Below the pieces are notes generated by a model. That model worked only from the letters and a program-made list of their open reading frames with translations, had not been told where the DNA came from and did not search any database. A DNA stretch of 64,000 nt, taken from NCBI GenBank assembly GCA_964016885.1, contig OZ024742.1, positions 115,940,001 through 116,004,000 of the forward strand, given 5' to 3'. Positions 1,020 through 59,961 of this stretch are shown piece after piece. The position numbers and the translations under genes are program-made. The stretch's first letter is position 1. The number at the start of each line of letters is the position of its first letter. The stretch is from Eledone cirrhosa. Its lineage: Eukaryota.

Positions 1020-1393
<374 letters not shown>

Positions 1394-1893
1394 TTGAGGT
1401 TGGTAATGGCACATGGAATATATAAGAGACAGAATACTTTTTTGTGAAAAAACATATAATTTTATAAGGTAAGGAAATAATAAAGGTATAAAAATGACCG
1501 CTTTCGATGGGTCTGTAAAAGCCATCTTTTCAAATGTTGATTAATATTAATAACATTAATAGTAAGAAGAGTTAAAATTTGAGACTTGAAAATTCAAGTA
1601 TAAAATTCATTGTGGGATTTCATAGTAGTTTTCATCTTGGTAGCAGCTAGTTGACTGCTGTGTGCCTTTCTGGTAGTGAATGAGAAGTTATTTGGGGGTG
1701 TGGGTTATTTTATAAAAGTCAGATTTAGCAATGGCCAGATGGCCAGCTGCTGGTCAGTGAGGGGGTGGAAGCAATATACATACATATATCTCCCTGTGGT
1801 CGGTAGGAGAGGGGAGATTGATAGAAAGGGATTTAGTGCACTTACACCTATATATACACACATACCTTCATCCACGCATACATACATATACAT

Positions 1894-1934
<41 letters not shown>

Positions 1935-2619
1935 CACACATACATACATACACACATACATATACATACACACATACACAGACATATATGCACATACACA
2001 CACATATATATATACACACACACACATATATATACATACACATATATATACACACACCCACACATACATACACACACACACACACATGCACATATATACA
2101 CATACACACACATATATATACACACACACACACACATATATATATACACATACGCATACATCCAGATACACACATACATATACACACACACACGCACACA
2201 CAATACATACATCCACATACACATATACACATACATACACCCACACACAGAGTAATGGCCTCCAAATATATATATATACATACATACACATATATTTTTT
2301 CCATAATATAAGAAGTTAGGACAGTGAAATTAAAATACAAGTCATTCTGATCACATTGAGTTCTTCATGTAGATTGGGCCCCGCAACCGACAGTGGTGAA
2401 TTCTGTGTGCGCATATATATATATATAGATATATGTGTGTGCACGTGCAGGGTTTAACATGGATGTGTTGGTCACACAAAGGCATGGTCTGTCAACGAAT
2501 AAACCTGATTCTACAGAATTGGTATCTGGTCTATAGTAGTGATAATTATATACATGCACACATACAAACACATATATCTGTCACTCCGTGCGTACGTGTG
2601 TTTATATTTTATGACAATT

Positions 2620-4415
2620 CTATTGGGGTGATAACCCGTTTAGTTTTGGTTTAAATTTGTTAAGGAATACATTTTCTTTGTTTATTCTTTGTTGCTGTGT
2701 GAACGAATCTGAGCACTTGTAGAAGGGGAAGATTTTAAAGTTGGGTAGTGTCATTCCTGCGCAGTTCGCAATATGGCTGCTCAAGGGGATTTTTCTTGTG
2801 TTAGCGTCCCAGATTTGTTGGCGGTGGATGGTCATTCTTTTGCGTAATGAGGTGCCCGACTGTCCTATGTAGTTGTGTTTGCACCCACCGCAAGTTATTG
2901 CGTAAATCAAGTTCTCCGAGTTGCAGGTGAAATTGTTTTTTACTGTAAATGTTTGGCCATCTTTAAATGTAAATGTTTGTCCTTCAGTGAGGTAGAGGCA
3001 CGTTCCACAGTTTGTTCTACCACATTTGGTAACTGTAGGGTTTAGGATTGGTTTGGGTATATTTGGTCCAGTGAGAATGCGTTTTAGTGATTTGGGTTGT
3101 CTTTTACTTTTAAGGATCTTGTGTGTTTCAAGAATAGACTTCATTTTTACATCTTTAAGTAGGATGGGGAGGTTTTTGTGTAGGTGATCAAACATTTCGG
3201 TATTTCTGGGGTTGAAAGTGGATACATATGGCAGGGTGTTGAGTGTGGTTTTCTGTTTTGGATTGTTAAGTTGATGGGGATTTAGGTGTTTTGCCCTGTC
3301 TATTCCATTGTTGATTATTTCAAGTGGAACGGCTCTTAAGATATGGGTGTCTTTTAGTTCCTTTAGTCTTTGCTCCCGTTTAGGTAGATCTGATACTATG
3401 GTACATATACGTTTGGCCAAATTGAATGTTAAGTTTTGTATGTTTTGGGTGACTTGATATGAAAAAGAGGTATTGCTTGGAATCTGTGGGTTTATAGAAT
3501 ATATCTGTATCTAATTTCCCGTCTATTACAGAGATGAGAAAATCCAAGAAGGCTAATTCCTTGGGATTGGATTCCATTGTGAATTGTATGTTATTATATA
3601 TGTTGTTTATCATGTTTTTAAACATAGTAAGTGAGTTCATGTCTTCTTGCCATAGGATAAAGCAGTCGTCTAGATATCTTTTCCAATTGGCTTTGAGGTG
3701 TGTGTGGAAAGAGTCTCCAAATAAGAGAAGGGACTGACTGTATATTTGTTGTTCATGGAATCCCATGACTAGGTTGGCATATGTGGGTGCTATTTTCGTG
3801 CCCATTGCCTTACCTGATACTTGTCTGTATGTTGAACCATTGAATGTGAAGTAGTTATTTTGTAGGATAAAGCGGAGTCCGTCAGTGATAAAATCTTTAT
3901 TGATGCGTGTCGGTATTTCTGATGGGTGTGTGTTAAGCCAGTATTGGACTGATGTTATTCCATAGTTGTGGGGTATGTTTGTGTAGAGGTTTATTACGTC
4001 AAAGGAGACAAGAATTGTATTTGCACTTACTGTTTTAGGGAGGTGTTTCAGCATGTCAAGGTCATCTCGTATGTAGCTCTGTATATGTTGTAGAAAGGGT
4101 TTCAGTAGGATGTTCAGAAAGTTGCTAAGTCTGTGGGTTTCACATGTAGGGCCTGCTATATTTGGCCTGAGTTTTAGGTCTTCTGGTGGTGTTAGTTCAA
4201 TGTAATTGTTGGTTGAGGTGTCACATGCATCGTTTATGGGTTTACATTTGTGGAGTTTCGGTAAGCCGTAAAAAGAGCTTGTATTGCATTTGAAGTGGCT
4301 TATATAGTTAAACTCTTTTGTGGTTAAGCTGTTGCGGTATTTATTCAGTAAGGTCAAAAGGTTACCCATTGTTTTGGTGTGTTTGTAGTTTTCTGTTTTT
4401 TCATAGTATGTGTTG
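2620..4415 (-). mobile_element. 5'-truncated Neptune-like Penelope retroelement, RT + GIY-YIG, one frameshift near 3410
   Basis: ORF 3380-4495: FYGLPKLHK, LVSFDVINLYTNI, GKAMGT, WKRYLDD, FYKPT. ORF 2620-3420: CGRTNCGTC linker, NLIYAITC..C..NYIGQS, KLN. 5' end runs into (TA)n. Confidence 0.92.
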
Positions 4416-4418
4416 ATG

Positions 4419-4453
<35 letters not shown>

Positions 4454-5642
4454 AAATATATATGTATGTGTGTGTGCATGTGTGTGTGTGCGCACGTGTG
4501 TATTTCATTTGATGTGCCGGAAATATATTTTATGAAAATCATTTCCCTTTCATTTATTTTTGTTTTACATTATTTCTTAAATTTTGCTGTTTGTTACTTT
4601 GGTTTAAATTCTTTTTTCTCTATCGCTAGGAACGTTTCGGTGACAATTCACTTTCTCAGTATATTCATTAAAATTATTATCTTACTATACTTCTCACTGC
4701 CAGCGCTGAATCAGTCATAATCCCCATGCTCTCTACTAGGTTGTTACAAGATCCAATTAGCATATTGTTGAGGGGTCTTTTCCATTCTTACTTAAGGCTG
4801 TTTCTATGCTGAATCGATTTCTGTCAAACAGTCGACAATGGCGAGGCTGGGAGGCAAACATTTCCAGTGAGAAATAAGTTCTTCTCTTCTTTATCTACAT
4901 TCATCCTTTCATTGATTAATGCTGTTTGTTATTTCTAATTTCATTTTTTTTTCATTTTCCTTTACTTGTACCGTTTCCGGGATGTTTTTATATTCTTACA
5001 TAGAAGGTTTCTTCAGTCCAGTGTTATTTTCTATCGGATTCTTCACATTCTCAGGACTTATCTTCTGTTATACTGATTAATGTTCGGCTGTGAATGATCA
5101 AATCCTTCCAGGACTTGTTATCAATATATGAATAATATATGTTGTGTCTCTTTGTTACCTACTTGTTTCCTTGTGGATTTAATCTGATTCTGAATCTTTT
5201 CATTGCTACAGCGCAATTTTTTCAGCTCAACCATTTGCAGGGTTGTGCATAAGTAGTCAATTTAATAAAGGATGCTCATATCGGTTGACGTTGTTGTTGT
5301 TGTATATGTATTATGTGTATTATCTTGTTATTCGTCAATGTACTGTCAAAGGTTGACTCACGGGATTTTCCCCACTAAAGCAACACAGGATCTTTCATAA
5401 AGTAATGCCACTTTTGTAATTATTCGTATTTTCCTCTGCAATGATTCATACTAATATATATGTTCATGTGTGTGTATTGAAAAAGGAAAATAAAACAAAA
5501 GTCGATGAAAGGTTCTTAATGGGATAATTGTTTTACAATCGTGTCAGAAGAGTAATTAATCTTGATAAATCGATATCTTAACTGGTAGTGGTTATGTCAC
5601 CACCTGTTTCTAGTATTGATATCCTAGCTCTATTGTTCGATG

Positions 5643-6119: not shown

Positions 6120-6192
<73 letters not shown>

Positions 6193-6480
6193 CAAATAAC
6201 GAAACGAAATTAAATTTCGTTTCCTTTGTAACTCACTTTTGTATGACTGACGCTTAAACAATTAAGTTAAAAATGTACATCCACATATGTATACTGAAAT
6301 ACTAGTATGCATATGAATACACACACGTATACATATGTAGATGTACCAAGTTTTTCACTGGTCACTTTACTGTGAGTGTCCAGCTATTCTGTATGTAAAC
6401 ACACAGACAAATCAGTTTTTAGAGTCATACTGGTTTTTGAGGAAACACCTTTCCTCTATTCTCCAGAAAGCCAGACAAGG

Positions 6481-6525
6481 AATATTGAACTAGTTTCGTT
6501 GTTGTTACAACTCATCAGCAATATT
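6481..6525 (-). ncRNA. Minimal type I HHR, intact core (family C)
   Basis: aatattg-CTGATGA-gttgt aaca acaac-GAAAC TA GTT-caatatt; 7-bp helix I, 5-bp helix II. Confidence 0.92.
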
Positions 6526-7110
6526 TACCTATCTTCCGGCCTTTCTGGAGAATCGTAAAAGCACATATCGTTATATGCTTTTTCTATGAAAATTAGTAGT
6601 GGGCAGACTAATTTGCATAGAGTGTGAGTACGTATCGGTTCAACGGAGACGATAAAAACAAATAACGAAACGAAATTAAATTTCGTTTCGTTTGTAACTC
6701 ACTTTTGTATGACTGACGCTTAAACAATTAAGTTAAAAATGTACATCCACATATGTATACTGAAATACTAGTATGCATATGAATACACACACGTATACAT
6801 ATGTAGATGTACCAAGTTTTTCACTAGTCACTTTACTGTGAGTGTCCAGCTATTCATATGCATACTAGTATTTCAGTATACATATGTGGATGTACATTTT
6901 TAACTTAATTGTTTAAGCGTCAGTCATACAAAAGTGAGTTACAAACGAAACGAAATTTAATTTCGTTTCGTTATTTGTTTTTATCGTCTCCGTAGAACCG
7001 GTACGTACTCACACTCTATGCAAATGAGTCTGCCCACTACTAATTTTCATAGAAAAAGCATATAACGATATGTGCTTTTACGATTCTCCAGAAAGGCCGG
7101 AAGATAGGTA

Positions 7111-7155
7111 AGTATTGCTGATGAGTTGTAACAACAACGAAACTAGTTCAATATT
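7111..7155 (+). ncRNA. Minimal type I HHR, intact core (family C, inverted arm)
   Basis: agtattg-CTGATGA-gttgtaacaacaac-GAAACTAGTT-caatatt. Confidence 0.92.
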
Positions 7156-7370
7156 CCTTGTCTGGCTTGCTGGAGAATAGAGGAAAGGTGTTTCCTCAAA
7201 AACCAGTATGACTCTAAAAACCGGTTTGTCTGTGTGTTTACATACAGAATAGCTGGACACTCACAGTAAAGTGACCAGTGAAAAACTTGGTACATCTACA
7301 TATCTATACGTGTGTGTATTCATATGCATACTAGTATTTCAGTATACATATGCGGATGTACATTTTTAAC

Positions 7371-7438
<68 letters not shown>

Positions 7439-7640
7439 ACGTACATACATATATGTATACAGACGTACAATAGTATGTATATATATATATATATACATAC
7501 ATGCACATATATATATATGTACGTATGGATTCACCGAACATTTATTATAATGCTCGGTGTGTTTTTAAACAAATATCCCGAATTAAGCCGTACTGTGTCT
7601 AGCAACCATCGTTGCTCATTTGTTCAACACTGACAAAGGA

Positions 7641-7683
7641 ACGCTGTACTAGTTTCAAGCATATTAGCTATCGTCAGCAACGT
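7641..7683 (-). ncRNA. Minimal type I HHR (family B, unit 1)
   Basis: acgttg-CTGACGA-t-agc taatat gct-t-GAAAC TA GTA-cagcgt. Confidence 0.88.
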
Positions 7684-8073
7684 ATACCTTCCTACCAGAT
7701 GGTTGAACGTGTGAAAATATTTACTTTCATTATGCATATTAACGGCTGAGCAGCCTAATTTGCATACCGAGTGAGTTAATCGGCAGGGGTACCGAAAACG
7801 ATAAACGGAAAAAATGAAACGAAATTTCATTTCTCACTCTTAGTAAGGCTGTTACTTAAATATAAGTATGTATACGTACATACAAATATGTATACAGATG
7901 TACAGTAGTATGTATATATCTATATATACATACATGCACACATATATATATGTACGTATGGATTCACCGAATATTTATTATAATGCTCGGTGTGTTTGTA
8001 AACAAACATCCCGAATTAAGCCGTACAGTGTCTAGCAACCATTGTTGCTCATTTGTTCTACACTTACACAGGA

Positions 8074-8116
8074 ACGCTGTACTAGTTTCAAGCATATTAG
8101 CGATCGTCAGCAACGT
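8074..8116 (-). ncRNA. Minimal type I HHR (family B, unit 2)
   Basis: Same motif 433 bp from unit 1, one helix II change. Confidence 0.82.
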
Positions 8117-8485
8117 ATACCTTCCTGCCAGATGGTTGAACGTGTGAAAGTATTTACTTTCATTATGCATATTAACGGCAGGAGCAGCCTAATTTGCATA
8201 TCGAGTGAGTTAATCGGTCGGGGTACCGAAAACGATAAACGGAAAACATGAAACGAAATTTCATTTCTCACTCTTAGTACGGCTGTTACTTAAATATAAG
8301 TATGTATACGTACATACATATATGTATACAGACGTACAGTAGTATGTATATATATATATATATGTACGTATGGATTTTCCGAACATTTATTATAATGCGC
8401 GGTGTGTTTGTAAACAAACGTCCCGAAATAAGTCGTAGAGTGTCTAGCAACCACCGTTGCTCATTTGTTCAACACTGACAAAGGA

Positions 8486-8528
8486 ACGCTGTACTAGTTT
8501 CAAGCGTATTAGCTATCGTCAGGAACTT
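8486..8528 (-). ncRNA. Minimal type I HHR (family B, unit 3)
   Basis: CTGACGA...GAAACTAGTA core intact, helix I weakened. Confidence 0.75.
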
Positions 8529-8650
8529 ATACCTTCCTGCCAGATGATTTTCGCTACCCAGACCGATTTCTCACTCGATATGCAAATTAGGCTGCTCAGC
8601 ATAATGAAAGTAAATGCTTTCACACGTTCAACCATCTGGCAGGAACGTAT

Positions 8651-8693
8651 ACATTGTTGATGATAGCTAATAAGTTTGAAACTAGTACAGCGT
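8651..8693 (+). ncRNA. HHR (family B inverted arm), C3 to U variant
   Basis: acattg-TTGATGA-tagctaataagttt-GAAACTAGTA-cagcgt. Confidence 0.7.
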
Positions 8694-8979
8694 TCATTTG
8701 TCAGTGTTGAACAAATGAGCAACAATGGTTGCTAGACACTGTAGGGCTTAATTCGGGATGTTTGTTTACAAATACACCGAGCATTATAATAAATGTTCGG
8801 TGAATCCATACGTACATCTATATATATATGTGTGCATGTATGTATATATATATATATATATATACATACTACTGTAAGTCTGTATACATATATGTATTTA
8901 CGTATACATACTTATATTTAAGTAACAGCCGTACTAAGAGTGAGAAATGAAATTTCGTTTCATTTTTTCTGTTTATATA

Positions 8980-9012
<33 letters not shown>

Positions 9013-9190
9013 TAATAAAAGGAATTCCAACTTTTATTAACTCCTTTTATTTACAATCATTTAAAATTATAATGATATTATAATGAAATAGTATGGGAGA
9101 ATATTAAAAGGTAATCGAACAAGTACTTTCATGCTTTCGCAATCTTCAGATTCATATTCAGGGGTGACAGTCAAGTATACAATTATAAAT
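9013..9190 (-). mobile_element. Family A element with HHR at 9117-9153
   Basis: gaat-CTGAAGA-ttgcgaaagcat-GAAAGTACTT-gttc on the minus strand. Confidence 0.78.
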
Positions 9191-9310: not shown

Positions 9311-10252
<942 letters not shown>

Positions 10253-10930: not shown

Positions 10931-10999
10931 ATTTTATTATGCGCATTTCAAAAACAAATATCATCATGAGATGACATTTGCGTTTTCGTCAGATAAAAT
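10931..10999 (-). ncRNA. Type I HHR with palindromic GCGC loop III
   Basis: attttat-CTGACGA-long helix II-GAAAT GCGC ATA-ataaaat. Confidence 0.9.
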
Positions 11000-11127
11000 G
11001 GGGATACATGATATGAAGGTTAAAAAACACTTGTGAATAGTGAAGTTTTAAATCAACATATTTAAAACGTGTTGATTTAAAACTTCACTATTCACAAGTG
11101 TTTTTTAACCTTCATATCATGTATCCC

Positions 11128-11198
11128 TATTTTATCTGACGAAAACGCAAATGTCATCTCATGATGATATTTGTTTTTGAAATGCGCATAATAAAATA
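11128..11198 (+). ncRNA. Type I HHR with palindromic GCGC loop III
   Basis: tattttat-CTGACGA-aaacgcaaatgtcatc tcat gatgatatttgttttt-GAAAT GCGC ATA-ataaaata. Confidence 0.9.
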
Positions 11199-12257: not shown

Positions 12258-12263
<6 letters not shown>

Positions 12264-12856
12264 GGAAAAAATGAAACTAATTTTTTTTTCTCACTCTTAT
12301 TACGGCTGTTACTTAACTATAAGTATGCATACGTATATACATATATGTATACAGACGTACAGTAGTATGTATATATATACATACATGCACACATATATAT
12401 ATGTCTGTATGGATCTACCGAGCACTTATTGTAATGCTCGGTTTGTTTGTAAATAAACATCCCGTATTAAGCCTTACAGTGTTTAGCAACCATCGTTGCC
12501 CTTTTGTTTAACACTGACAATGGGACGATGTATTTGTTTCAAGCTTATTAGCTATCGTCAGCACCGTATATCTTCCTGCCAAATGATTGAACGTCTGAAA
12601 GTATATACTTTCCCTATGCATATTAACGACTGGTATGCATATTAGGCTGCTCAGCCGTTAATATGCATAAGGAAAGTATATACTTTCAGATGTTCAATCA
12701 TCTGGCAGGAAGGTATACAGTGCTGACGATAGCTAATAAGCTTGAAACTAGTACATCGTTCCTTTGTCAGTGTTGAACAAAAGGGCAACGATGGTTGCTA
12801 AACACTGTACGGCTTAATTTGGGATGTTTGTTTACATGTTCGTATACATACTTATA
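12258..12856. mobile_element. Family B fold-back copy; HHRs at ~12525-12566 (minus, degenerate) and 12717-12759 (plus, intact core)
   Basis: Inversion at ~12635; gtg-CTGACGA-tagctaataagctt-GAAACTAGTA-cat. Confidence 0.85.
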
Positions 12857-25534: not shown

Positions 25535-26223
25535 ATTTATTGACACGTGTTTCTATAACAGTTACATAACCTAAAACAGCTGCTATCTACAAACTTTTAG
25601 TTATGCAGACATTCAATATTTCAATGTTATTATTTACTGTCATTTCTTCAGAATAATATTACTGAGGACCTATTTAGTTTTTATAGAGAATATTAGGAGG
25701 GAGGGGTGAAGTTTTAGAAGAATAGTTGAAGGAGTGGTTTTTCGATAGCAGTGAGAATTCTTGGTGGCAGTGAGTAATTAGATTCCCATCTGTTGTTTTG
25801 ACATTTTTTATAGAATATATTATTGGTTATTTTTCTAAATCTATAGAAGGATTAGTGATAGTAAAGATATGCGTGGTTGGTTTTGTGTTTGCACTTAATT
25901 AACATTCAGACTTAAATTGTTCTTTCAAGTGTACGTATCCTTTCACCCACGCATTCACACAAAAATATATTTGCACACCTCTACAAAATACATATACTCA
26001 CAATTCACATATTCATACTTACATATATATACATATGCATACACATATATATACACACATGTATTCATGTACATACATACGCGCTCATGTGTATACATTT
26101 TCATACTCAACTTATCTTTATATACACACGTATAGACACACACACATATACATACATACTCTAGTCCATGTGTACACACATACACATACATACACATCTA
26201 TATACACATATATACATACATAT

Positions 26224-29793: not shown

Positions 29794-29847
29794 CATTTAC
29801 CAGTGGTTTCTTAAAAGCAAAAGGTTTTGCTTTCAATCCTCAGAATG
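29794..29847 (-). ncRNA. Type I HHR, intact core
   Basis: catt-CTGAGGA-ttgaaagcaaaa cc ttttgcttttaa-GAAACC ACT GGTA-aatg. Confidence 0.9.
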
Positions 29848-29863
29848 AAAAACCAGGATTTTT

Positions 29864-29918
29864 CATTCTGACGATTGAAAGCAAAACCTTTTTGCTTTTA
29901 AGAAACCACTGGTAAATG
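29864..29918 (+). ncRNA. Type I HHR, intact core
   Basis: catt-CTGACGA-ttgaaagcaaaa cct ttttgcttttaa-GAAACC ACT GGTA-aatg. Confidence 0.9.
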
Positions 29919-31791: not shown

Positions 31792-32105
31792 TAAGAATAC
31801 GTATTTAAGAAAGCCACAACAATGCAAAGGGAAATCTCGAGGTAGGAAGTGAAATATAGATAGGAAAAACAGGTGAAAGTGAAAATTGAGAGAGACAAAG
31901 ATGAAAACAAAACAAAGGTAGAAGGGTTACCGTAGTAGAGATTTAATCCCGGGATTAAATCTCTACTACGGTAACCCTTCTACCTTTGTTTTGTTTTCAT
32001 CTTTGTCTCTCTCAATTTTCACTTTCACCTGTTTTTCCTATCTATATTTCACTTCCTACCTCGAGATTTCCCTTTGCATTGTTGTGGCTTTCTTAAATAC
32101 GTATT

Positions 32106-35568: not shown

Positions 35569-38500
35569 TTGCTGCCATTAACAAACAAACAAATTAACAA
35601 CACACCAAAACAATTAAAACCATCCACTCTCGCCTCAACATGTTTGCTTAACGGCCAAGGCATCAACCCTTCCACCAATACTCAAAAATGGAAGATCAAA
35701 TTCCTGGAGGACATGGTTGATGTCCATCCAAACCACATCCCTTTCTTCGTCCTCACTGAAACCCATCTCAGTAACCTCCACTTGGAAGCCGCGGTGAAAG
35801 TGAAAAATTTCAAAGCCATCCGTGCTGATCGCGCTGGCAGAAGAAAGGGTGGGACTGCCATTTATGTCCATAATTCTTTCTCAACAGAGGCTATGAACAT
35901 ATTTTCTAATGGATACTGCGAAGCAGTCACTGTATTCAGTCAAACCAACAACCTAATAGTAATTGGGCTCTATAGGCCACCCCAAAAGCCTCTACCATGA
36001 TTCAAGGAATGCCTCAACAGCATAAAGTATTTCATCCAAGAGTGTCACCCTGACAACATCTTAATGATGGGGGACTTCAACCTCCCCGGAGTTGACTGGT
36101 CCACAAACAGCCTGCCACCAGGTTCTTCTGCCTCAACCTCTAACAGGGAAGCAGTGGAATCGCTTCTTGACTTCATGGATGATTTCTTCCTGTCCAAACT
36201 GGTGCTCGAACCAACGAGGTGCCACAAAAACGTCCTAGACTTAAATTTCAGCAATCACACTGACACTATCCACAATATTGCAGTAGAGAAAACTACTCCC
36301 TGATCATGACATGGTTCTCTATGATCTGAGATTCCACCATCCAATATACAAACCCAATGTCATCTCTCCTGTCCATCCGTTTGACACTATGGATTTCCAT
36401 AATGCAAACTGGGAAGTGATCAGTCATGATCTTGCACATGTCGACTGGTCCTTCACGCACACTGACACACCCACTAACATCAAAATGTCCTGGAAGACAT
36501 TTGTGGACACTGTTACAAACATATGTGCAAAACACAACCCATTAAGAACTATAAACAAATCTAAGAACAGAATCCCTAGAAATAGAAAAACGCTCATCAG
36601 GAAAATTAAGAGAACTAACAAAAAATCAACAAGCTGAAATACTGTCAGCAGCAACACACCAACTTGACTGCCATTTCATCACTAGAGATTAAAACACATA
36701 ACCTCCAAAAGAATATGATGTCTATCATCAACAATCAAATAAGAGCTGAAGAGGCCTGGGCCATTGAGAAGATCAAACTCAATCCCAAAGTCTTATTTTC
36801 ATTTGCAAAAAAACACAAAATCACTGGCTCTACTGTTGGCCTACTAATTGATGAAAATGGCACTCCTCAAGACAATGCTAAAACCATGGGTGAGATACTG
36901 CAGAAACAATACTGCTCTGTTTTCAGCAATCCTGATATGGCCTATCTGGGCTGTATCGGCTATGTTACTCCCCATTACACCTTATCGGACACAACGTTTG
37001 GCGCCCCTGATGTCTTAGCGGCAATAAAGGAAATCAAGCATAATTCAGGAGTAGGTCCCGATAGGTTCCCTGCTTGTGTCTTGAAGGCGTGTCAACACCA
37101 ACTTGCATCTCCTCTTGCCAATCCGTGGCGGAACTCACTAGATGCTGGATATGTGCCAGAAAACCTTCTATCCCAGTCTGTTGTCCCAGTTTTCAAAAAA
37201 GGAAACAAATCCCTTGCCGCGAATTACCGTCCAATCACACTCACCTTTCATATCGTTAAGGTATTTGAGAGAGTGGTGAGATCGCGAATGGCTCACTTCC
37301 TTGAGAGTAACAATATGCTGAACTCCAACCAGCATGGATTCCGTAATGGAAGGGATTGCCTGACGCAGCTACTTCATCACTCTGATGACATTTTGAGAGC
37401 CTTGGGAGAGGGTTCCTTCACTGATGTTATCTACCTTGATTTCAGCAAGGCCTTTGATAGGGTTGATCACAACATTCTACTGAGAAAGCTGTCCAATATT
37501 GGTGTCACTGGAAAGCTGCTGCAGTGGATCAAGTGCTTCCTGTCAAACAGAACCCAACATGTTGTAGTCGAAGGAGTCAGATCCAGCCCAGCCAAAGTCA
37601 TTAGTGGGGTCCCACAAAGCACTGAGTTGGGCCCACTTTTCTTCATCATCTATATTAATGACATCACTGACATCATCAAACACAGCAACATTAGAATTTA
37701 CGCTGATGATTCCAAGCTCCAGAAGGTCATCAATGGCATGGATGACCGGATAAGCCTTCAGTCAGACCCAATGGGCGGAAAAGAACAACATCGTACTGAA
37801 CGAAGACAAATTCCAAATGACCCACTTTGGAAAAGAGGATGCTCTGAAACTCCCGTACCCCTTCCCTCCGGTGAAACTCTCGTGACATCTAACAACATCA
37901 GAGACTTCGGAGTAACTGTGGACAGCAACATAAGCTGGGCCACGCATATAAGCAGCAAATTTGACATGGCCCGCAGAATGTGTTCCTGGATCCTCAAAAC
38001 CTTCCAGTCGAGAGATTCCCACACCATTATCCTTCTCTTCTCCACTTTTGCTCGACCACATCTTGAATACTGTTGTCCAATGTGGTCTCCCCATACGAAA
38101 CAAAGTATCATAAAACTTGAAGCTCCCCAAAGGGCAATCACCAAAAAGATAGATGGCATGTCAGACTTTGACTACTGGGGTCGACTAGAAAAGCTGAAAC
38201 TTTACTCGCTCCAACGTCGCCGTGAGCGTTATATTATCTGCATTATGTGGAAAATGTTTCATCAGCACTCTCCAAATGATGTTGGCATCACCTTCAAAAT
38301 ACACCTAAGGCTTGGGCCCCGTGCTATCCGTCCCAAACAAAAATCTAATTCACTACTCATAACAACAATACGGCACAATTATTTCACCTCAATTGGCCCT
38401 GCTCTCTTCAACATCACACCAGGACACGTCAAAACAGAAACTGACCACACAAAATTCAAGATGTCTTTGGACAAATTCCGCCAAGTAATCCCGGACAAAC

Positions 38501-38571
38501 CACCCACACCCGGATATGTCTCCGCAAACAGTAATTCCCTTCTCGAATGGGCCATGGTGCCCAAATCCTGA
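35569..38571 (+). pseudogene. LINE ORF2: apurinic-like endonuclease + reverse transcriptase, with stops and frameshifts
   Basis: LTETHL, RADR..RKGGTAIYV, LYRPP, MGDFNLP, LDL..S; NYRPITL, QHGFR, YLDFSKAFDRV, SGVPQS, YADD, RPHLEYC. Confidence 0.93.
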
Positions 38572-40162: not shown

Positions 40163-43100
40163 TTATACTTGGGGAGGGCCATATGTGTGTAATATTGCCA
40201 GAATAAATAACAGAACCCACCAAACTGTTTGGTTGGTTTTCGCTTCTGTTTCTTTTATATCGGTAATCTAATTTATTCGGTCCACAATGTTGCCATTGAC
40301 TGACCAACGGTCACAAATCATACAGATACAATATAGACGAAAACACATATATATAGTTTATCAAAGTTCTTTCGTTGCACATCTTCAACATCGTCAGTGG
40401 TGCTATAGATTACTCCCGTCGCATTGTATTTCTACGCCATCTTTATTTAGTTGTGTTTATATATTTATTTATTTATTTGTTTGTTTGTTTATTTTATTTT
40501 GTCTTCTTTGCGCATGCGTTTGCGTGTGTGTATAGTGTTTTGTTTGATGTGTGTTCGTGATTGGGTGACTGTGTATTGGTTAATGTATTCTATATGTTTA
40601 CTAGTGTGTGTTTATATGTTTGTTGTTATTGTGCTTGTGTATGTATTTATTTATTTATTTATCTATTTATTTATTTATTTATTTATACCTCTCTTAGGTC
40701 AGTGTTGTTTGTTTGGGTGTTGTTGTTATTCCATTCATTCTTTCTGTTTAGTCTTAGCCTTCTAAGTTCTATTTCACTGGCCTCTCTGATTTGCCTATCT
40801 GCTGGGTCATTTCTATGTTTAGATATTATTCTAATTTCCATGTTGTCTATGTTACCGTCGTGTTGTTGTCTGGCATGTTCGTATAGTACTGACACGTTTT
40901 TTCATCCTTTTAGTTCCCCCCAGTGTTGGTCTATCCTTTCACCTATGCTACGAGCTGTCTCGCCTATGTATGTTGTTGTATTGTTTCTGCAACTACCCTC
41001 TGTACATCTTATGCTATAGACTACGTTTCTAGTTTACAGTTTATCCGGGGGTTTACCTTACATATGATACATTTCCTATAAGTACAGTGGGTTTTCTTAA
41101 AAGGGTAGGTTTTGCTGATCAGGGATTTTATGGTGGTTCCTGGCTTTTCTACCACCTTAATCTTTAAGTGGGTCTTTCTCGGGGCCTTTCTCCACTGGTT
41201 AGCTAATTTCCCTCCAGGGGTAGCATCCACAAACATGACACTCAGATATCTCCGGTTGTCGTACCATGAGGTGGCTTTCCCTATCTTATGTCTAGCCCTA
41301 TCTAAGCTATTCCAGGATTTGCTCCTGATTAATGGGAACATTCCTTTCTAGTCCAGTTCTATGAGGGTCTCATACTTCTCCATGGCTCCTTCGTAAACTC
41401 TGACTATGTCTCTTTGGTTGTTGTCATAGGACTGCATGTGGTTGCTGAAGTGTTAGATGTGTCTTTCCATTTCTGTTGGGTCGCACATGCGGGATACGTT
41501 CTTCATCACTCGTACCAAATCTGCGATCAGAATATTAAACTTAGCACTACTGGACACTGCTGAGTTTTTGAGCATCAGGTATTTGGAGGCCATGGGTTTA
41601 GCATAGTGTGAGTGGAGAATTTGGACTCTCTCATCTATAGTGTTAATCCAGAGTTCCGTGTCTTATACAGGTAGTCTATTGTTAGGGTCTTTGGAAGGGT
41701 AGTCGATAGTTACAGTTATACACTGGTGTATGGAATTAGCTATCTGCTGGATGCTTTCCATTGTGCTACGTTCTAAATCAAACTTGTTAGTGCTCTCTAC
41801 TGGGGATGTTCTTATAACTATATTGATATCGTCTACGTAACGAGAGTACATGATGAGGTCTATGGAGCTCTCATTAAGGAGATCTTTAAGTCTCCTTTCC
41901 CACCATGCCATAAAAAGGTTGGCAACATCACCAGCTATGCTGACGTCAATGGCTGCTCCCTCATTTTGGGTGTAGATCTTCTCGTTGAACTTGAATATGT
42001 GGCCCTTTAGGCTAGTTTTGATACTAGCCCCTATTGCATGTGCGACCATTTTTCTTACCTGATCATTGTTTTGGCGGGTCCGTATAGCTTTGGTCCACCC
42101 AATCCACCTTCCCATGGGCGTCTTGTTTGCATGGAGGTTATGGTGGGGGTGTACCTCGTATGGGTCTACTAGGGCAGAAACTTCTAAGGTCATGGCTCTC
42201 TAGGTAGTCAGTCTCGTATTTAAGTCTAAGTAGGAGCCCCAGTTCGTCTGTGTCGACGTCGCAGAACTCCACTTCACTCCCAATGATCATCTCCACACAT
42301 TTTTCCACAGCAAAATCAATGTTAATGGATGGGTACAGTGATACCACATCCATGCTGCCTATTATGCAGTTGGATAGGTTCCTGTTTTTGTTGTACTCAC
42401 TGATTCTGCTGAGGAGGTCCTCTGTACTGTCACATACATCTGGGGACATCTTGATTATGGGGCGTATAACCACTGAGAGGAAGTAGGAGATCCTGTAGTT
42501 GCTAGCTATATTAGCTCCGCAAATGGGTCTTGTTGGTGGTCTTGTTGTCGGGTCGTCGACTGTCTTGTGGTCTTTGCGGAGCCCATACAGGATGGTATGC
42601 CATATGTTAGACGCCTGGAAGTTGTTGGCAGTGCGTCTGCTTGGCTTTAGGATGTCAGTCCACATCATCATGTGAGCGTTGATGATTTTCTCTCTCCCAT
42701 CGTGTGTTTGTTGTGCAATTTCGCTCCTGTTGGTGATGTGGGGTTGCATTAACTTGATGTAGTTCGGCATGCTATCTACTGACATCCTACCCGACTTATC
42801 CGTGGGTAGACATACTACCTCACCATCCCTTGTGCGCTGCTTGAGGCTAACCAAGCCTTCTATAGGTTTCCTCCCAAGTTGTTGGGCCTCTGGTTTGCTC
42901 TGTCTCTTAGTATACCGGTCTACTATTTGTTAATCTTATTTCTAGCTATGGTGAACTGTGACTCTGTCTCGTCATCTATTTGTTGTGGTATGCAAACTAT
43001 TTTATTAAAGGGTAACCTCGTAGGATAGTTATTACCCATCTTATATGTTTTGTCAGCTGGGTTGAAAAATAGTTTCTCTAGGGGGTTGTCATTATATCTA

Positions 43101-43860
43101 TCGTCATAGTTGCGTGTGTTGCTATTATTGTTATTATGGTGGTTGTTGTTGTTCCTATCATTAGCATTATTATTATTGTTATGATTGCTAGATGTATTGT
43201 TGCTGTTGTGATTGTTGTTTACATCACCGTTATTGTTGTTGTTACTGTTATTTCTACCATTATGGTTGTTACTTTTATTATGTTTCTTGTTTTTGTTGTG
43301 CCTATCATTAATGTTGCTACATGTATTTTTCCATTATTACCACTGTGGTTGTTGTTTTTGTTGTTCGTATTGTTACCGTTATTACTACTGTGGTCGCTGC
43401 TGCTGTGTCTGTGGTTAATGTTTCTATTATTATTATTATTGTGGTTGTCGTTGTTGTTCTGTCTCTCGTTAGTATTATTACCATTATTACTATTTCTCAC
43501 TCTCCTGCTATTGTTATTGTTATGGTTGTTATTCCTATACTCGGAGTTATTGTTTATATTACTACTACCGTTATTATTGTTGTTGTTGTAGTTTACTTTT
43601 GCATTCCAACGTATTTTTGTCAAACACTCTTCCAGCTCCGTTTTGCAATCAATAGGTTTAATATTTTTATAGATGGCAAATTTTGGTGGTAGCTGCAGGA
43701 TTTGTTGTTCTTGTTCACCGATTAAAGTGTTCCCATAAATATTTACTGTGTGGTCATTGGCAAATTCTTCCGGTAGTTTTACATCAGTCATACGGATATT
43801 GTTGATGTTATCTTGGTATTTTTGAGAATATTCTATTTTCCTTTCTTGTAGTTGTTTATC
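40163..43860 (-). mobile_element. PLE family E, left arm: N-terminal region with poly-Asn tract, RT, GIY-YIG, pLTR with HHR at 40360-40401; frameshifted
   Basis: LPPKFAI, PTDKSG, IIGSMDVVSLYPSI, YSRYVDD, EASEI...LNRKNEW. Confidence 0.92.
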
Positions 43861-46266
43861 CTATTTCCACTCGATAGTTATATGCCCCATAATCAAGATG
43901 TCCCCAGATGTATGTGACAGTACAGTGGACCTCCTCAGCAGAATCAGTGAGTGCAACAAAAACAGGAACCTATCCAACTGCATAATAGGCAGCATGGATG
44001 TGGTATCACTGTACCCATCCATTAACATTGATTTTGCTGTGGAAAAATGTGTGGAGATGATCATTGGGAGTGAAGTGGAGTTCTGCGACGTCGACACAGA
44101 CGAACTGGGCCTCCTACTTAGACTTACTTACGACACTGACTACCTAGAGAGCCATGACCTTAGACGTTTCTGCCCTAGTAGACCCATAAGAGGTAGACCC
44201 TCCACCATAACCTCCATGGCAAAAAAGACTCCCATGGGAAGATGGATTGGGTGGACCAAAGCTATACGGACCTGCCAAAACAATGATCAGGTAAGAAAAA
44301 TGGTCGCACATGCAATAGGGGCTAGTATCAAAACTAGCCTAAAGGGCCACATATTCAAGTTCAACGAGAAGATCTACACCCAAAATGAGGGAGCAGCCAT
44401 TGGCGTCAGCATAGCTGGTGATGTTGCCAACCTTTTTATTGTAAGGTGGGAAAGGAGACTTAACGATCTCCTTAATGAGAGCTCCATAGACCACATCATG
44501 TACTCTCGTTACGTAGATACGTAGACGATATCAATATAGTTATAAGAATATCCCCAGTAGAGAGCACTAACAGGTTTGATTTAGAACGTAGCACAATGGA
44601 AAGCATCCAGCAGATAGCTAATTCCATACACCAGTGTATAACTGTGACTATCGACTACCCTTCCAAATACCCTAACAATAGACTACCTGTATTAGACACG
44701 GAACTCTGGATTAACACTATAGACGAGAGAGCCCGAATTCTCCACTCACACTATGCTAAACCCATGGCCTCCAAATACCTGATACTCAAAAACTCAGCAA
44801 TGTCCAGTAGTGCTAAGTTTAATATTCTGATCGCAGATTTGGTACGAGTGATGAAGAACGTATCCTACATGTCCGACCCAACAGAAATGGAAAGCCACAT
44901 CCAACACTTCAGCAACCGCATGCAGTTCTCTGGCTACAACCAAAGAGAAAGAGCCAGAGTTTACGAAGGAGCCATGGAGAAGTATAAGACCCTCATAGAA
45001 CTGGACATGAAAGGAATTTGCCCATTATACAGGACCAAATCCTGGAATAGCTTAGATAGGGCTAGACATAAGATAGGGAAAGCCACCTCATGGTACGACA
45101 ACCGGAGATACCTGAGTGTCATGTTTGTGGATGCTACCCCTGGAGGGAAATTAGCTAACCAGTGGAGAAAGGCCCTGAGAAAGACCCACTTAAAGATTAA
45201 GGTGGTAGAAAAGCCAGGAACCACCATAAAAACCCTGATCAGCAAAACCTACCCTTTTAAGAAACCCACTGTACTAATAGGAAATGTATCATATGTAAGG
45301 TAAACCCCCGGATAAACTGTAAAACTAGAAACGTAGTCTATAGCATAAGATGTACAGAGGGTACTTGCAGAAACATGAAAACAACATACATAGGCGAGAC
45401 AGCTCGTAGCATAGGTGAAAGGATAGACCAACACTGGGGGGAACTAAAAGGAGGAAAAAACGGGTCAGTACTATACGTACATGCCAGACAACAACACGAC
45501 GGTAACATAGACAACATGGAACTTAGAATAATATCTAAACATAGAAATGATAGGCAAATCAGAGAGGCCAGTGAAATAGAACTTAGAAGGTTAATACTAA
45601 ACAGAAAGAATGAATGGAATAACAACAACACCCAAACAAACAACACTGACCTAAGAGAAGTATAAATAAATAAATAAATAGATAAATAAATAAATTGATA
45701 AATAAATAAATAAATAAATACATACACAAGCACAATAACAACAAACACATATAAACACACACTAGTAAACATAGAATACATTAACCAATACACAGTCACC
45801 CAATCACGAACACACATCAAACAAAACACTATACACACACGCAAACTCATGCGCAAAGAAGACAAAATAAAATAAACAAACAAACAAATAAATAAATAAA
45901 TAGATAAACAGACTAAATAAAGATGGCGTAGAAATACAATGCAACGGGAGGAATCTATAGCACCACTGACGATGTTGCAGATGTGCAACGAAAGAATTTT
46001 GATAAACTATATATATGTGTTTGTGTCTATATTGTATCTGTATGATTTTTGACCGTCGGTCAGTCAATGGCAACATTGAGGACCGAATAAATTAGATTAC
46101 CGATATAAAAGACACAGAAGCGTAAAGCGAAAACCAACAAAACAGTGAGTGTGTTCTGCTATTAATTCTGGCAATATTACACAAATATGACCATACCCAA
46201 GTATAACAATATTTGTTTCGACACACGATTTCATATAAAAAACCTCGCAAAACTAATTCATCGCCG
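43861..46266 (+). mobile_element. PLE family E, right arm (inverted, more 5'-truncated) with pLTR HHR at 45962-46003
   Basis: ORFs 43898-44524, 44596-45303, 45375-45665 (YIGETARS..ER..H); reverse complement of 40163-42490. Confidence 0.93.
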
Positions 46267-48006: not shown

Positions 48007-50088
48007 TTAATTGTAAGTTGTGATGTTGCTGTTCCACTCATATTTTCTATTTAATTTTGGTTGTAATTCTTTTATGTTTATTGCCTCTGTAATTTGTCTA
48101 AACATTGTGTCTTTTCTGTGTGTAGATTCTATTTTTATTTCTATGTTCTCTAATTTACCCTTGTGTTCTATTTTAGCATGTTGGTAGAGTACAGATGATT
48201 CTTTACTATCTTGAAGGTCTCGCCAGTGTTCATTTATCCGTTCCCCTACACTACGAGCTGTCTCACCTATGTACACTATATTTTTGTCTCTACATTGTCC
48301 TTCAGTACATCTTATGCTATACACTACATTTGTAGTTTTACAGTTAATATGGGGGCTTATTTTACAGGTTATACATTTCTTATCTATACATGAGGGTCTT
48401 TGAAAAGGGTATGTCTTGCTAATAAGTGTTTTTACGGAGGTACCTGGTCTTTCTACTATCTTAATATTGAGTTTATGTTTATTTAGGGCCATTCTAAATT
48501 TGTAAGCTAATTCACCTCTAGGGGTTGTATCGATGAACATTACACTCTGGTATTTATTGCTATCATACCATGAGTTTATTCTATTAGCCTTGTTCCTAGT
48601 TAGTTCTATTGTATTCCAAAATGTGCTCCTATACAAGTGGCAGGTCCCATTTATGTCATTATTTACAATTTTTTCCCATTTGGTTCTGGCTCCTCTATAC
48701 ACTCTGATTTTATCTCTCTCATTGTAGCCAGAGAACTGCATACGGTGGATGAAGTGTTGTATGTGTCTCTCTAGTTCTTCGGGGTTGCACATGCGGGACA
48801 CATTTCTCATCACCCGTACCAAATCCGCAATCAGTATGTTGATTTTGGTATGGTCCGAAACGGCCGAGTTTCGGTGGATCAGATGTTTGGAAGTCATGGG
48901 TTTGGCATAATGGGAATGGAGGATTTGTTTTTTGTTGTTAATGGTATCTAACCAGAGCTCTGTGTCTAGTACAGGTAATCGATGGTTGGGGTGTTTACTT
49001 GGGTAGTCTATAGTAAATCTAATGCTCTGGTGGATGGAGTTTGCTATTTGCTGGATGCTTTCCATTGTGTTTTTCTCTAGTTCCTGACTGTTCTCTAGTG
49101 GGGGTGTCTTAACTACGATGTTTATATCATCTACGTAGCGGGAGTACATTATCAGGGTTAAGGGGTCTTCTGATTGTTCTTTAAGTTTATGTTTAAGTCT
49201 ACTGTCCCACCATACCATGAATAAGTTAACTATGTCGCCTGCAATGCTAACACCAATGGCTGCTCCATTCTCTTGGGCATATGTTTTTCCATTAAATTTG
49301 AACATATGTTCCTTAAGGGTTAGTTTTATGCTGGCCCCTACCGCATGTGCAATCATTTTCTTCAGTTCATCGTGGTTTTCGGGTGTCCGTATGGCTCTGG
49401 TCCACCCGTTCCATCTATCCGTGTGGGTTTTCTTGGCCATTGAGGTAATGGTAGGTGGTTTGCCTCTTGCTGGTCTTGTAGGGCACAGGTTGCTAAGGCC
49501 ATATGTGTCTAGGTAATTATTACTATAGGTAAGCTTAAATAGGAGTCCCAGCTCACTGGTATCAATCCCACGGAACTCAACCTTGCTCTCACTGATCATT
49601 TCTACGCATTTCTCCACAGCAAAATTCACGTCAATAGATGGATACAGGGACACAACATCCATACTGCCTATTATGCAGTTTGTTAGGTCCCTAGATCGGT
49701 TACTCACGCCGATTCTGCTGAGGAGGTCCTCCGTGCTGTCACATACATCTGGGGACATTTCAATGATGGGGCGTATGATCAGGGAGAGGAAGTAGGACAG
49801 TCTGTAGTTACTAGCAATGTTAGCTCCACAGACTGGCCGTGTTGGTGGTCCCGCGACAGTGTCACTGCCCGTGTTATGGTCTTTTCGAAGCACAAACAAC
49901 GCCGGCACGTCATTGTTCCAGGCCTGGAAGTTGTTGGCAGTCCTTTTGTTGGGCTGCATTATATTCGTCCACATCACCATATGGGCATTGAGGGCTTTTT
50001 CTCTATCCTCATGCTCCTGTGGTGTTACCTCTCTTGTGTTAGTGATGTGTGCGTTGCATTGCCTGGATTTAGTTTGGCAGGCTATCAA
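48007..50088 (-). CDS. Penelope-like RT + Cys linker + GIY-YIG endonuclease, 693 aa uninterrupted, N-terminally truncated
   Basis: RKDH, TRPVCGA, IIGSMDVVSLYPSID, GAAIG, YSRYVDD, HYAKPM, CIDKKCITC, NVVYSIRC, YIGETARS.GER..EH, EAINI..LQPKLN. Confidence 0.95.
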   Translation of the reverse strand: MIACQTKSRQCNAHITNTREVTPQEHEDREKALNAHMVMWTNIMQPNKRTANNFQAWNNDVPALFVLRKDHNTGSDTVAGPPTRPVCGANIASNYRLSYFLSLIIRPIIEMSPDVCDSTEDLLSRIGVSNRSRDLTNCIIGSMDVVSLYPSIDVNFAVEKCVEMISESKVEFRGIDTSELGLLFKLTYSNNYLDTYGLSNLCPTRPARGKPPTITSMAKKTHTDRWNGWTRAIRTPENHDELKKMIAHAVGASIKLTLKEHMFKFNGKTYAQENGAAIGVSIAGDIVNLFMVWWDSRLKHKLKEQSEDPLTLIMYSRYVDDINIVVKTPPLENSQELEKNTMESIQQIANSIHQSIRFTIDYPSKHPNHRLPVLDTELWLDTINNKKQILHSHYAKPMTSKHLIHRNSAVSDHTKINILIADLVRVMRNVSRMCNPEELERHIQHFIHRMQFSGYNERDKIRVYRGARTKWEKIVNNDINGTCHLYRSTFWNTIELTRNKANRINSWYDSNKYQSVMFIDTTPRGELAYKFRMALNKHKLNIKIVERPGTSVKTLISKTYPFQRPSCIDKKCITCKISPHINCKTTNVVYSIRCTEGQCRDKNIVYIGETARSVGERINEHWRDLQDSKESSVLYQHAKIEHKGKLENIEIKIESTHRKDTMFRQITEAINIKELQPKLNRKYEWNSNITTYN

Positions 50089-50258
50089 CCGACATTCTGC
50101 CAGAATTGTCTGTCGGAAAGCATGCTATCTCTTCATTATGTGAGCAACCAACCAGAAATTTATAAATTTATAAATTTATTATTAATTTATTATAATAAAT
50201 TGAAGTGAAGCAACTGGTGCGTGTGTTTCTTATTGGCAACATGACCCTCTCAAAGTAT

Positions 50259-53738: not shown

Positions 53739-53744
<6 letters not shown>

Positions 53745-54149
53745 GGAAAAAATGAAACGGAATTTCGTATCTCACACTTAGTTTTCGGTGCGCCCGGCCG
53801 ATTAACTCACTCAATATGCAAATTAGGGTGCTCAGCCGTTAATATGCATAAGGAAAGTATATACTTTCAGACGTTCAATCATCTGGCAGGAAGGTATACG
53901 GTGCTGCCGATAGCTAATAAACTTGAAACTAGTACATCGTTCCTTTGTCAGTGTTGAACAAAGGGGCAACGATGGTTGCTAAACACTGTACGGCTTAATT
54001 CGGGATGTTTGTTTACAAACTAACCGAGCATTATAATAAATGTTTGGTGAATCCATACGTACATATATATATATGTGTGCATGTATGTATATATATATAT
54101 ACATACTACTGTACGTATGTATACATATATGTATGTACGTATACATACT

Positions 54150-54150
<1 letters not shown>
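53739..54150. mobile_element. Family B copy (plus) with short inverted left arm; HHR variant at 53898-53940
   Basis: gtg-CTGCCGA-tagctaataaactt-GAAACTAGTA-cat; ATGCAAAT at 53816. Confidence 0.82.
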
Positions 54151-54183
<33 letters not shown>

Positions 54184-59881: not shown

Positions 59882-59961
59882 TCTCTCGCTGATGATGCCC
59901 AGGATTATCTGTTACAAACACACTCAGGGAGAAACAGATTAGGGATAATCTGTCCGAGAGA
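59882..59961 (+). ncRNA. Full type I hammerhead ribozyme with stable helix III and GUC site
   Basis: tctctcg-CTGATGA-t(g)ccc...ggga-GAA ACAGATTA ggga TAATCTGT C-cgagaga. Confidence 0.9.

What the first reader, a model, noticed from the sequence alone, without database searches (positions are those of the whole stretch)
7433..8973. Family B: non-coding ~433-bp tandem units with one HHR each (candidate retrozyme)
Seen: HHR at 433- and 412-bp spacing, no ORF, and dispersed copies at 12258-12856 and 53739-54150 starting at different points of the unit. Established: animal non-LTR retrozymes are short HHR tandem repeats that yield monomeric linear and circular RNAs and are thought to be mobilised by PLEs. 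Inference: multimeric, permuted copies arise from rolling reverse transcription of a circular RNA.
Basis: partly seen in the sequence, partly recalled or inferred. Interest (0 to 1): 0.85.

Follow-up and report, generated by a model that had tools for sequence, protein, structure and literature searches.

The report
Penelope-hijacking hammerhead ribozyme repeat
A 433-base non-coding repeat carrying a predicted self-cutting hammerhead RNA is scattered in tens of thousands of copies through this animal genome with the insertion footprint of Penelope retrotransposons, so it is likely a parasite copied by their enzyme, probably from a small RNA circle that has not yet been shown to exist.

Summary
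Largely confirmed, with corrections. Three type I hammerhead motifs lie on the minus strand at 433 and 412 bp spacing, with no ORF. Copies are not freely permuted. Their 3' ends fall at two fixed sites about 59 nt apart (160 of 194 arms), mostly in (TA)n; only 5' ends vary. In head-to-head insertions one arm ends at each site (38 of 40 informative cases). This is the Penelope-like element (PLE) 'tail' and inverted-arm footprint. The family has about 50,000 insertions (24,000-92,000). None of six PLE groups checked carries it as pLTR. Units within one insertion share subfamily alleles, and 50 of 50 copies run through the ribozyme cut site. So arrays were likely born multimeric from an RNA continuous across that site: a ligated circle (about 0.6) or an uncut multimer (about 0.3). 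No RNA data could be obtained; cleavage, circles and the partner PLE are unshown. Most hammerheads at this locus are damaged. Verdict: a new member of the animal non-LTR retrozymes, with direct genomic evidence of PLE mobilisation.

The parts
7422..8549 (-). Tandem arm, 2.6 units (1147 nt of unit sequence); 5' end at unit position 376, 3' end at the inner fixed site (~223), merging into (TA)n
8548..8976 (+). Inverted arm, one unit (position 282 to 279, with an internal deletion); 3' end at the outer fixed site (279), followed by (TA)n
7641..7683 (-). Type I hammerhead 1, predicted cut after 7647 (GUA); consensus-like: 6-bp stem I, U.U at the base of stem II, short palindromic stem III
8074..8116 (-). 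Hammerhead 2, predicted cut after 8080; one stem II pair broken
8486..8528 (-). Hammerhead 3, predicted cut after 8492; closing pair of stem I broken
8651..8693 (+). Hammerhead 4 in the inverted arm; C3-to-U core change and a stem II change
8918..8976 (+). PLE-type 'tail' (~59 nt between the two fixed 3' ends), containing a predicted 11-12 bp hairpin; present at this end of the insertion only
7376..7432 (.). (TA)n target tract, left flank (shared with the end of the related family A insertion)
8974..9012 (.). (TA)n target tract, right flank (followed by a pLTR fragment of autonomous PLE family P4)
12258..12836 (.). Second insertion: minus arm ending at 279 plus an inverted arm (300 to 83, then a short piece of the 223 end); two hammerheads, one with a damaged stem III
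53739..54157 (.). Third insertion: 44-nt minus arm ending at 279 and a plus arm 281 to 223; hammerhead with an A6-to-C core change

Best explanation
This is a high-copy, non-coding 433-bp repeat with one hammerhead motif per unit and the insertion footprint of Penelope-like elements (PLEs), likely a non-LTR retrozyme that a PLE reverse transcriptase/endonuclease copies from a predicted RNA circle. Shown: the unit, the motif and its covariation, two fixed 3' ends about 59 nt apart, (TA)n targets, scattered 5' ends, head-to-head arms using one fixed end each, arrays that share subfamily alleles, and continuity across the cut site. Inferred: a few arrays are transcribed (promoter unknown); two successive hammerheads, possibly as dimers through the palindromic stem III, release a 433-nt monomer; a host ligase (RtcB-like, by analogy) closes it. 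A PLE protein then cuts both strands of a (TA)n tract, primes one DNA end at RNA site ~223 and the other at ~279, and rolls round the template for about 0.1 to 7 turns. The two cDNAs are joined head-to-head, or one arm is joined to the flank. The partner PLE is not identified. The focal locus is probably a decayed daughter, not a source copy.
For: 3' ends at 209-224 or 266-280 in 83 of 103 arms and 77 of 91 arms in an independent set. Head-to-head insertions with two classifiable ends pair 223 with 279 in 19 of 20 and again 19 of 20; pooled 38 of 40, p=1.5e-9. 5,983 exact 279-end/(TA)n junctions and 10,307 exact head-to-tail read-through junctions genome-wide, controls 4 and 0. Tail at one end, inverted 5'-truncated copy and microsatellite bias are PLE hallmarks (10.1101/2021.04.23.441226); the tail lies between two internal RT start sites and both strands are cut and extended (PMC11167929). 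Four abundant autonomous PLE families in the same genome show two fixed ends in (TA)n or (CT)n (P1, P2; P4; family A, non-coding). Units in one insertion differ at 7-11% of subfamily-diagnostic sites versus 34-45% between insertions, yet at 3.3-4.4% of other sites versus 4.3-6.6%: born together, not recent duplicates. 50 of 50 copies picked only by the 16 nt downstream of the cut continue upstream across it. Hammerhead stems covary: 7 of 17 pairs with two-sided changes across 13 distinct rows; G.U/U-A switch in stem I and A-U/G-C switch at pair 246-306 between subfamilies. Circular fold z=-10.3 (sense) versus -6.7 (antisense), 30 shuffles. An axolotl retrozyme with the same U.U stem II base cleaves weakly as monomer and well as dimer, and forms circles (PMC7229834).
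Against: No RNA evidence of transcription, cleavage or circles. PMC11167929 found hammerhead cleavage unnecessary, unprocessed RNA the dominant substrate, and no reads ending at the cut site. 8 of 9 Xenopus retrozyme dimers did not cleave in vitro (10.64898/2026.07.22.740005). My pre-stated circle test (5' ends piling up at 272-285 after one turn; 7 of 83 in the first set) failed in the new set: 1 of 77 versus 2.5 expected. The isolated hammerhead is not more stable than shuffles (z -0.9 to +0.8 for the 7 B motifs) and Rfam misses it. In unbiased copies the core is not significantly better conserved than the rest (4 of 198 versus 218 of 4529, p=0.08). The covariation reflects a handful of family splits, not many events; two diagnostic pairs (71-118, 88-115) change on both sides to mismatches. 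No sequence homology to any PLE pLTR found.
Confidence: 0.6

Rival explanations
1. Same non-autonomous PLE-mobilised element, but the template is a linear, uncleaved multimeric read-through transcript from long source arrays. The hammerhead is slow or only trims 5' ends, and no circle is needed.
For: PMC11167929: unprocessed RNA is the dominant in vitro substrate. The weak U.U stem II and 2-bp stem III predict slow cleavage (inference). Source-size arrays exist: 7 units in L341, 8 or more in L340. All end, continuity and shared-allele data fit this equally. The circle-collision test failed.
Against: Stem I/II covariation kept across families A, B and B variants implies selection for a working ribozyme in source copies. 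No shared upstream flank (5' transduction) among 70 free 5' ends, bar one 72% repeat pair. All three animal retrozymes tested in PMC7229834 made circles.
Confidence: 0.3
2. The unit is only the pLTR of an autonomous PLE not yet found, and the copies are 5'-truncated insertions of it.
For: PLE pLTRs carry hammerheads (PMC4209133). Another hammerhead repeat in this window (9149, 1211) proved to be exactly that, the pLTR of family P4. The genome could not be searched exhaustively for every PLE family.
Against: 80 of 160 arms with a canonical end are longer than one unit and run into another unit. 0 of 70 free 5' flanks (300 nt) hit three PLE proteins. The 3' regions of P1, P1-like, P2, P2-like, P3 and P4 copies show no similarity to B beyond separate nested copies. 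The unit may still descend from an extinct or unseen PLE by internal deletion.
Confidence: 0.06
3. A satellite or minisatellite spread at the DNA level (unequal crossover, hairpin-mediated inversion), with an incidental or vestigial hammerhead.
For: A few arrays have identical neighbours (L172, L186: 0 of ~300 differences), so later DNA-level duplication occurs. Family A reaches more than 30 units. The genome has many inverted hairpin duplications.
Against: Dispersed at about 1 per 60 kb; polarity (fixed 3', variable 5'); strict 223/279 pairing; within-array divergence near the between-locus level.
Confidence: 0.03

Closest known systems
Animal non-LTR retrozymes (Acropora, Mytilus 350-390 bp, axolotl Rtz_331/Rtz_353; PMC7229834)
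   Same: Short non-coding tandem unit, one type I hammerhead each, GC under 50%, self-paired predicted circle, thousands of copies; U.U at the base of stem II as in axolotl HHR_Amex2.
   Different: Circles and cleavage are shown there, not here. Here the PLE tail and paired inverted arms are evident; a 2020 review passage says these repeats show no conserved motif pointing to their partner (PMC7761336).
EN+ Penelope-like elements (Penelope/Poseidon, Neptune, Naiad; Anolis PAc, PMC11167929)
   Same: Tail at one end only, inverted 5'-truncated arm, partial tandems, (TA)n target, hammerhead with palindromic stem III.
   Different: No ORF. The tail is ~59 nt (30-40 bp is given as typical; local P1 ~39, P2 ~60). 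The whole unit is 433 nt.
Vertebrate retrozymes as pLTR derivatives (bioRxiv 10.64898/2026.07.22.740005)
   Same: Non-autonomous, co-occurs with PLEs; monomers, dimers and multimers.
   Different: That study links them by co-occurrence and pLTR similarity (24 of 57 Xenopus families hit a known repeat). This unit has no detected pLTR homolog but shows the mechanistic footprint.
Chlamydomonas non-autonomous Chlamys/MRC1 (10.1101/2021.04.23.441226)
   Same: Non-autonomous PLE with head-to-tail insertions.
   Different: Those resemble their autonomous partner at the 3' end, and the N-terminal-EN clades are described as lacking hammerheads.
Newt satellite 2 (snRNA-type internal promoter cited in PMC2220036; original paper not held)
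   Same: Tandem hammerhead repeat; the unit has a conserved ATGCAAAT octamer (octamer link recalled).
   Different: Host U1/U2/U5 upstream regions lack the octamer (0 of 15), so an snRNA-type promoter is not supported.

Membership tests
Non-LTR retrozyme | Type I hammerhead in each tandem unit | tested here: met
   Rfam negative; several local copies damaged
Non-LTR retrozyme | Tandem unit of ~150-450 bp, GC under 50%, non-coding | tested here: met
   433 bp, GC 0.35-0.37; longest ATG frame 68 aa
Non-LTR retrozyme | Dispersed high copy number as monomers to multimers | tested here: met
Non-LTR retrozyme | Predicted highly self-paired circular monomer | tested here: met
   z=-10.3, 71% paired; the antisense strand is also z=-6.7, so partly due to palindromes
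Non-LTR retrozyme | Self-cleavage of the RNA | not testable with these tools
   needs in vitro transcription
Non-LTR retrozyme | Monomeric linear and circular RNAs in vivo | not testable with these tools
   no RNA run was offered
Non-LTR retrozyme | No PBS or PPT motifs | not tested
   no search made
Non-LTR retrozyme | Target-site duplication, when present, longer than 4 bp | tested here: inconclusive
   flanks are (TA)n, so a duplication cannot be read
PLE-mobilised element | [quoted passage not shown] | tested here: met
   160 of 194 arms; 38 of 40 pairings
PLE-mobilised element | 5' truncation with inverted 5'-truncated copy | tested here: met
   32 of 65 insertions bidirectional; 28 head-to-head junctions in 55 further loci
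PLE-mobilised element | Microsatellite or AT-rich target | tested here: met
   50 of 77 canonical ends followed by a strict TA run
PLE-mobilised element | Sequence similarity to the autonomous partner's ends | tested here: inconclusive
   no BLAST similarity to six PLE groups; tail length and an AT|CGT outer junction match P2 only; other families unseen
Autonomous PLE (or its pLTR) | RT plus GIY-YIG ORF joined to the repeat | tested here: not met
   0 of 70 free 5' flanks; one chimera with the ORF piece on the 3' side of a B arm
snRNA-promoter satellite (newt satellite 2 type) | Host-type snRNA promoter elements inside the unit | tested here: not met
   octamer in 0 of 15 host snRNA upstream regions; only a weak PSE-like match, absent from family A

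The most novel reading that the evidence does not exclude
The family is a genome-wide fossil record of rolling-circle, twin-primed PLE transposition: one PLE dimer primes both ends of a (TA)n break at two fixed internal sites of a 433-nt circular RNA that has no homology to the PLE. It would be a minimal natural circular substrate that any gene-sized cargo RNA might mimic, and direct proof that PLEs mobilise retrozyme circles.
Probability: 0.45. Interest if true: 0.65.

Novelty: new member of a known kind. Interest (0 to 1): 0.42.

Why it matters
How animal retrozymes move is still argued from co-occurrence and pLTR similarity. This family carries the PLE-specific footprint itself, with statistics (38 of 40 complementary ends), and rules out the cleaved linear monomer as template. 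With several young intact PLE families in the same genome, it offers a 433-nt substrate for the existing in vitro PLE assay, to ask whether a circle or an uncut multimer is copied and how the two priming sites are chosen. The class itself is known, so the gain is mechanistic, not a new kind of element.

Tried and rejected
Expression: no RNA holder listed; three contig sets of unknown kind from one sample were laid on 7520-8300 and say nothing on transcription or circles. Rfam: no hammerhead hit for B; its miRNA hits are TA/TG hairpin artefacts below gathering scores. snRNA-type promoter: rejected as above. Pol III: considered from the sequence only; T-runs at 264-285 lie inside the copied unit, so not favoured. 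Pile-up of 5' ends at 272-285: seen in the first set, not replicated. Pile-up at the cut site: 2 of 83 and 1 of 77 arms, but those sets were picked for an intact hammerhead and are biased; replaced by the 50-copy test. Partner search: P1 (777-aa ORF, 36 loci), P2 (38 loci), P4 (30 loci) and scattered P1-like, P2-like and P3 copies; none has B or A as pLTR. B copies beside PLEs are separate insertions (sequence inspected for L316; inferred from coordinates and orientation for L029, L039, L278, L280, L363, L370, L371). Literature: 7 searches gave no paper describing a cephalopod or octopus retrozyme or PLE twin priming; the library lacks most subscription journals and Repbase, and the supplement of PMC7229834, which lists invertebrate retrozymes, could not be read, so prior description cannot be excluded. 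PMC308520 is not held. Two look-ups of earlier scan findings were empty.

Full report
Setting. The window lies in a 3.0-Gb genome with spliceosomal snRNA arrays and abundant (TA)n tracts. The organism was not determined. The few named homologs of one local PLE protein come from assemblies of bivalve symbionts, which hints at a mollusc; the repeat landscape recalls octopods (recall, untested). Unit positions below are numbered from the base after the predicted ribozyme cut, on the ribozyme strand.

Observation. TRF reports a 433-bp repeat, 2.6 copies, at 7425-8546. A descriptor scan and alignment place type I hammerhead motifs on the minus strand, cut after 7647, 8080 and 8492, so the 433/412 spacing is right. 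The stretch also holds an inverted plus-strand arm, 8548-8976, with a fourth motif. The consensus motif has a 6-bp stem I extended past a small internal loop, the CUGACGA core, a stem II that opens with U.U, GAAA, and a 2-bp palindromic stem III ending in GUA. Rfam does not detect it, and alone it folds no better than shuffles. Support comes from covariation: 7 of 17 pairs change on both sides among 13 distinct rows from 21 sequences of B, a B variant and the related family A (these are few independent events), and a stem I pair switches G.U/U-A between B subfamilies. Only motif 1 in the focal array is consensus-like; motifs 2-4 and two of the three in the dispersed copies carry lesions. Two working neighbours are needed to release a monomer, so this locus is probably not a source. 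No ORF over 68 aa from an ATG exists in a trimer of the consensus.

Abundance. 9,423 exact copies of a 34-nt core (control 0); 32,074 of a 16-nt half-motif that also catches longer relatives of 466-484 bp. Sixty evenly spaced 10-kb stretches held 10 insertions in 9 stretches (two are an inverted duplicate), about 50,000 genome-wide (95% interval 24,000-92,000).

Architecture. Set 1 was 65 insertions: 3 in the window, 28 best BLAST hits, 9 random-sample loci, 23 motif-picked loci and 2 second insertions, after dropping 9 redundant loci and 3 duplicated arms. Of 103 arms, 44 end at 209-224, 39 at 266-280 and 20 elsewhere. Set 2 was 55 further motif-picked loci: of 91 arms, 38, 39 and 14. The 5' ends are spread round the unit. 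Of 32 bidirectional insertions in set 1, 19 pair the two ends, 1 has the same end twice and 12 have an unclassified end; in set 2 the counts are 19, 1 and 8 of 28. Pooled, 38 of 40 informative cases are complementary (p=1.5e-9). Ends mostly run into (TA)n. Passages of 10.1101/2021.04.23.441226 describe this as typical of PLEs: partial tandems, an inverted 5'-truncated copy, a tail on one end, microsatellite bias. PMC11167929 (parts 1-2 of 4 read) shows in vitro that the tail lies between two internal RT start sites and that both target strands are cut and extended.

Is it only a pLTR? Young autonomous PLEs abound: P1 (RT and GIY-YIG; many 777-aa frames), P2, P4 and others. None has B in its 3' region. 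80 of 160 canonical arms exceed one unit and continue into another unit; 10,307 exact read-through junctions exist. Of 197 arms, 125 abut another arm, 2 hit a locus edge and 70 have a free 5' flank; none of the 70 hits a PLE protein. As a positive control, the hammerhead repeat at window 9149 and 1211 was traced at once to the P4 ORF. The partner is open: tail length (~59 versus ~60) and an AT|CGT outer junction match P2 rather than P1 (~39), but family A, a 62% homolog of B, has a ~70-74-nt tail; P4's hammerhead shares the U.U and a palindromic stem III, and one locus joins a B arm to a P4 endonuclease fragment.

Template. Units within an insertion differ at 6.9% (same arm) and 8.8% (opposite arm) of 20 subfamily-diagnostic sites versus 33.7% between insertions, but at 3.3%, 4.0% and 4.3% of other sites. 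Fifty of the 55 set 2 loci gave 11.4%, 7.1%, 45.0% and 4.3%, 4.4%, 6.6% (5 loci with several insertions left out). Arrays and both arms were therefore likely made in one event from one subfamily's RNA; a few arrays were duplicated later (L172, L186). Of the first 50 genome matches to the 16 nt just downstream of the cut, 47 have the exact upstream 16-mer adjacent (my comparison of the lists) and the other 3 continue across with small mutations. A cleaved linear monomer is thus not the template. A ligated circle or an uncut multimer both fit. The monomer is predicted to fold as a strongly paired circle (z=-10.3, antisense -6.7), with a compensatory long-range pair 246-306 but also two pairs that break. 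A pre-stated test for stalling after one turn failed.

Comparison. PMC7229834 (parts 2-4 of 6 read; supplement unreadable) shows circles for coral, mussel and axolotl retrozymes, including one with U.U at the base of stem II, and proposes PLEs as the mobiliser. PMC4209133 (part 2 of 4) proposed circular PLE templates. The 2026 preprint (parts 1-3 of 5) adds co-occurrence and pLTR phylogeny in vertebrates and found only 1 of 9 dimers active. PMC7761336 (passages) notes no motif pointing to the partner. PMC6962438 (passages) counts 235 hammerheads in giant squid without describing their context. B works like a non-autonomous PLE and meets every retrozyme criterion I tested with a clear result; the two RNA-level criteria are untested.

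Verdict. New member of a known kind. Retrozyme-like, PLE-mobilised element: about 0.9. Circular template: about 0.6.

Noticed in passing
window 6186-7376: Family A: 466-bp homolog of B (62% identical) with a canonical G-C at the base of stem II and a GUU/GUC cut; same two-end architecture with a ~70-74-nt tail; about 11,000 motif matches including some B variants, arrays of more than 30 units.
   Followed up: partly
window 9013-9180 and 1040-1255: Hammerhead-bearing pLTR fragments of autonomous PLE family P4.
   Followed up: yes
window 1390-4504 (minus): 5'-truncated, frameshifted copy of PLE family P1; full copies have an upstream ~427-aa frame without Pfam hit plus a 777-aa RT/GIY-YIG frame, and my scan found no hammerhead in their pLTR.
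   Followed up: partly
window 48010-50124 (minus), 40749-45575, 9375-10140: PLE family P2, a ~60% related family in inverted arrangement, and a P2-type fragment; pLTR hammerheads present.
   Followed up: partly
window 10938-11190, 29798-29914, 59889-59954, 25588-25651, 50429-50492: Further hammerhead-like motifs of at least four other families, two as inverted pairs; host elements unknown.
   Followed up: no
L340 9246-9770 (= L353): A B arm joined on the same strand to a P4 endonuclease fragment with a short microhomology; possibly an RT template switch, single case.
   Followed up: partly
L336, L337, L339, L229: Longer B relatives (466-484 bp, ~75% identical) and a variant with C-G or C.A at the base of stem II and a GUU cut.
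   Followed up: partly
L187-L228: Host U1, U2 and U5 genes lie in tandem arrays; upstream regions share an AATTAAAT-like box near -90 and TCAGT near -57 but no octamer.
   Followed up: partly
window 36619-38571: 650-aa RT frame without a Pfam endonuclease hit, LINE-like by recall.
   Followed up: no
window 31862-32039: Long perfect inverted repeat flanked by TA tracts.
   Followed up: no
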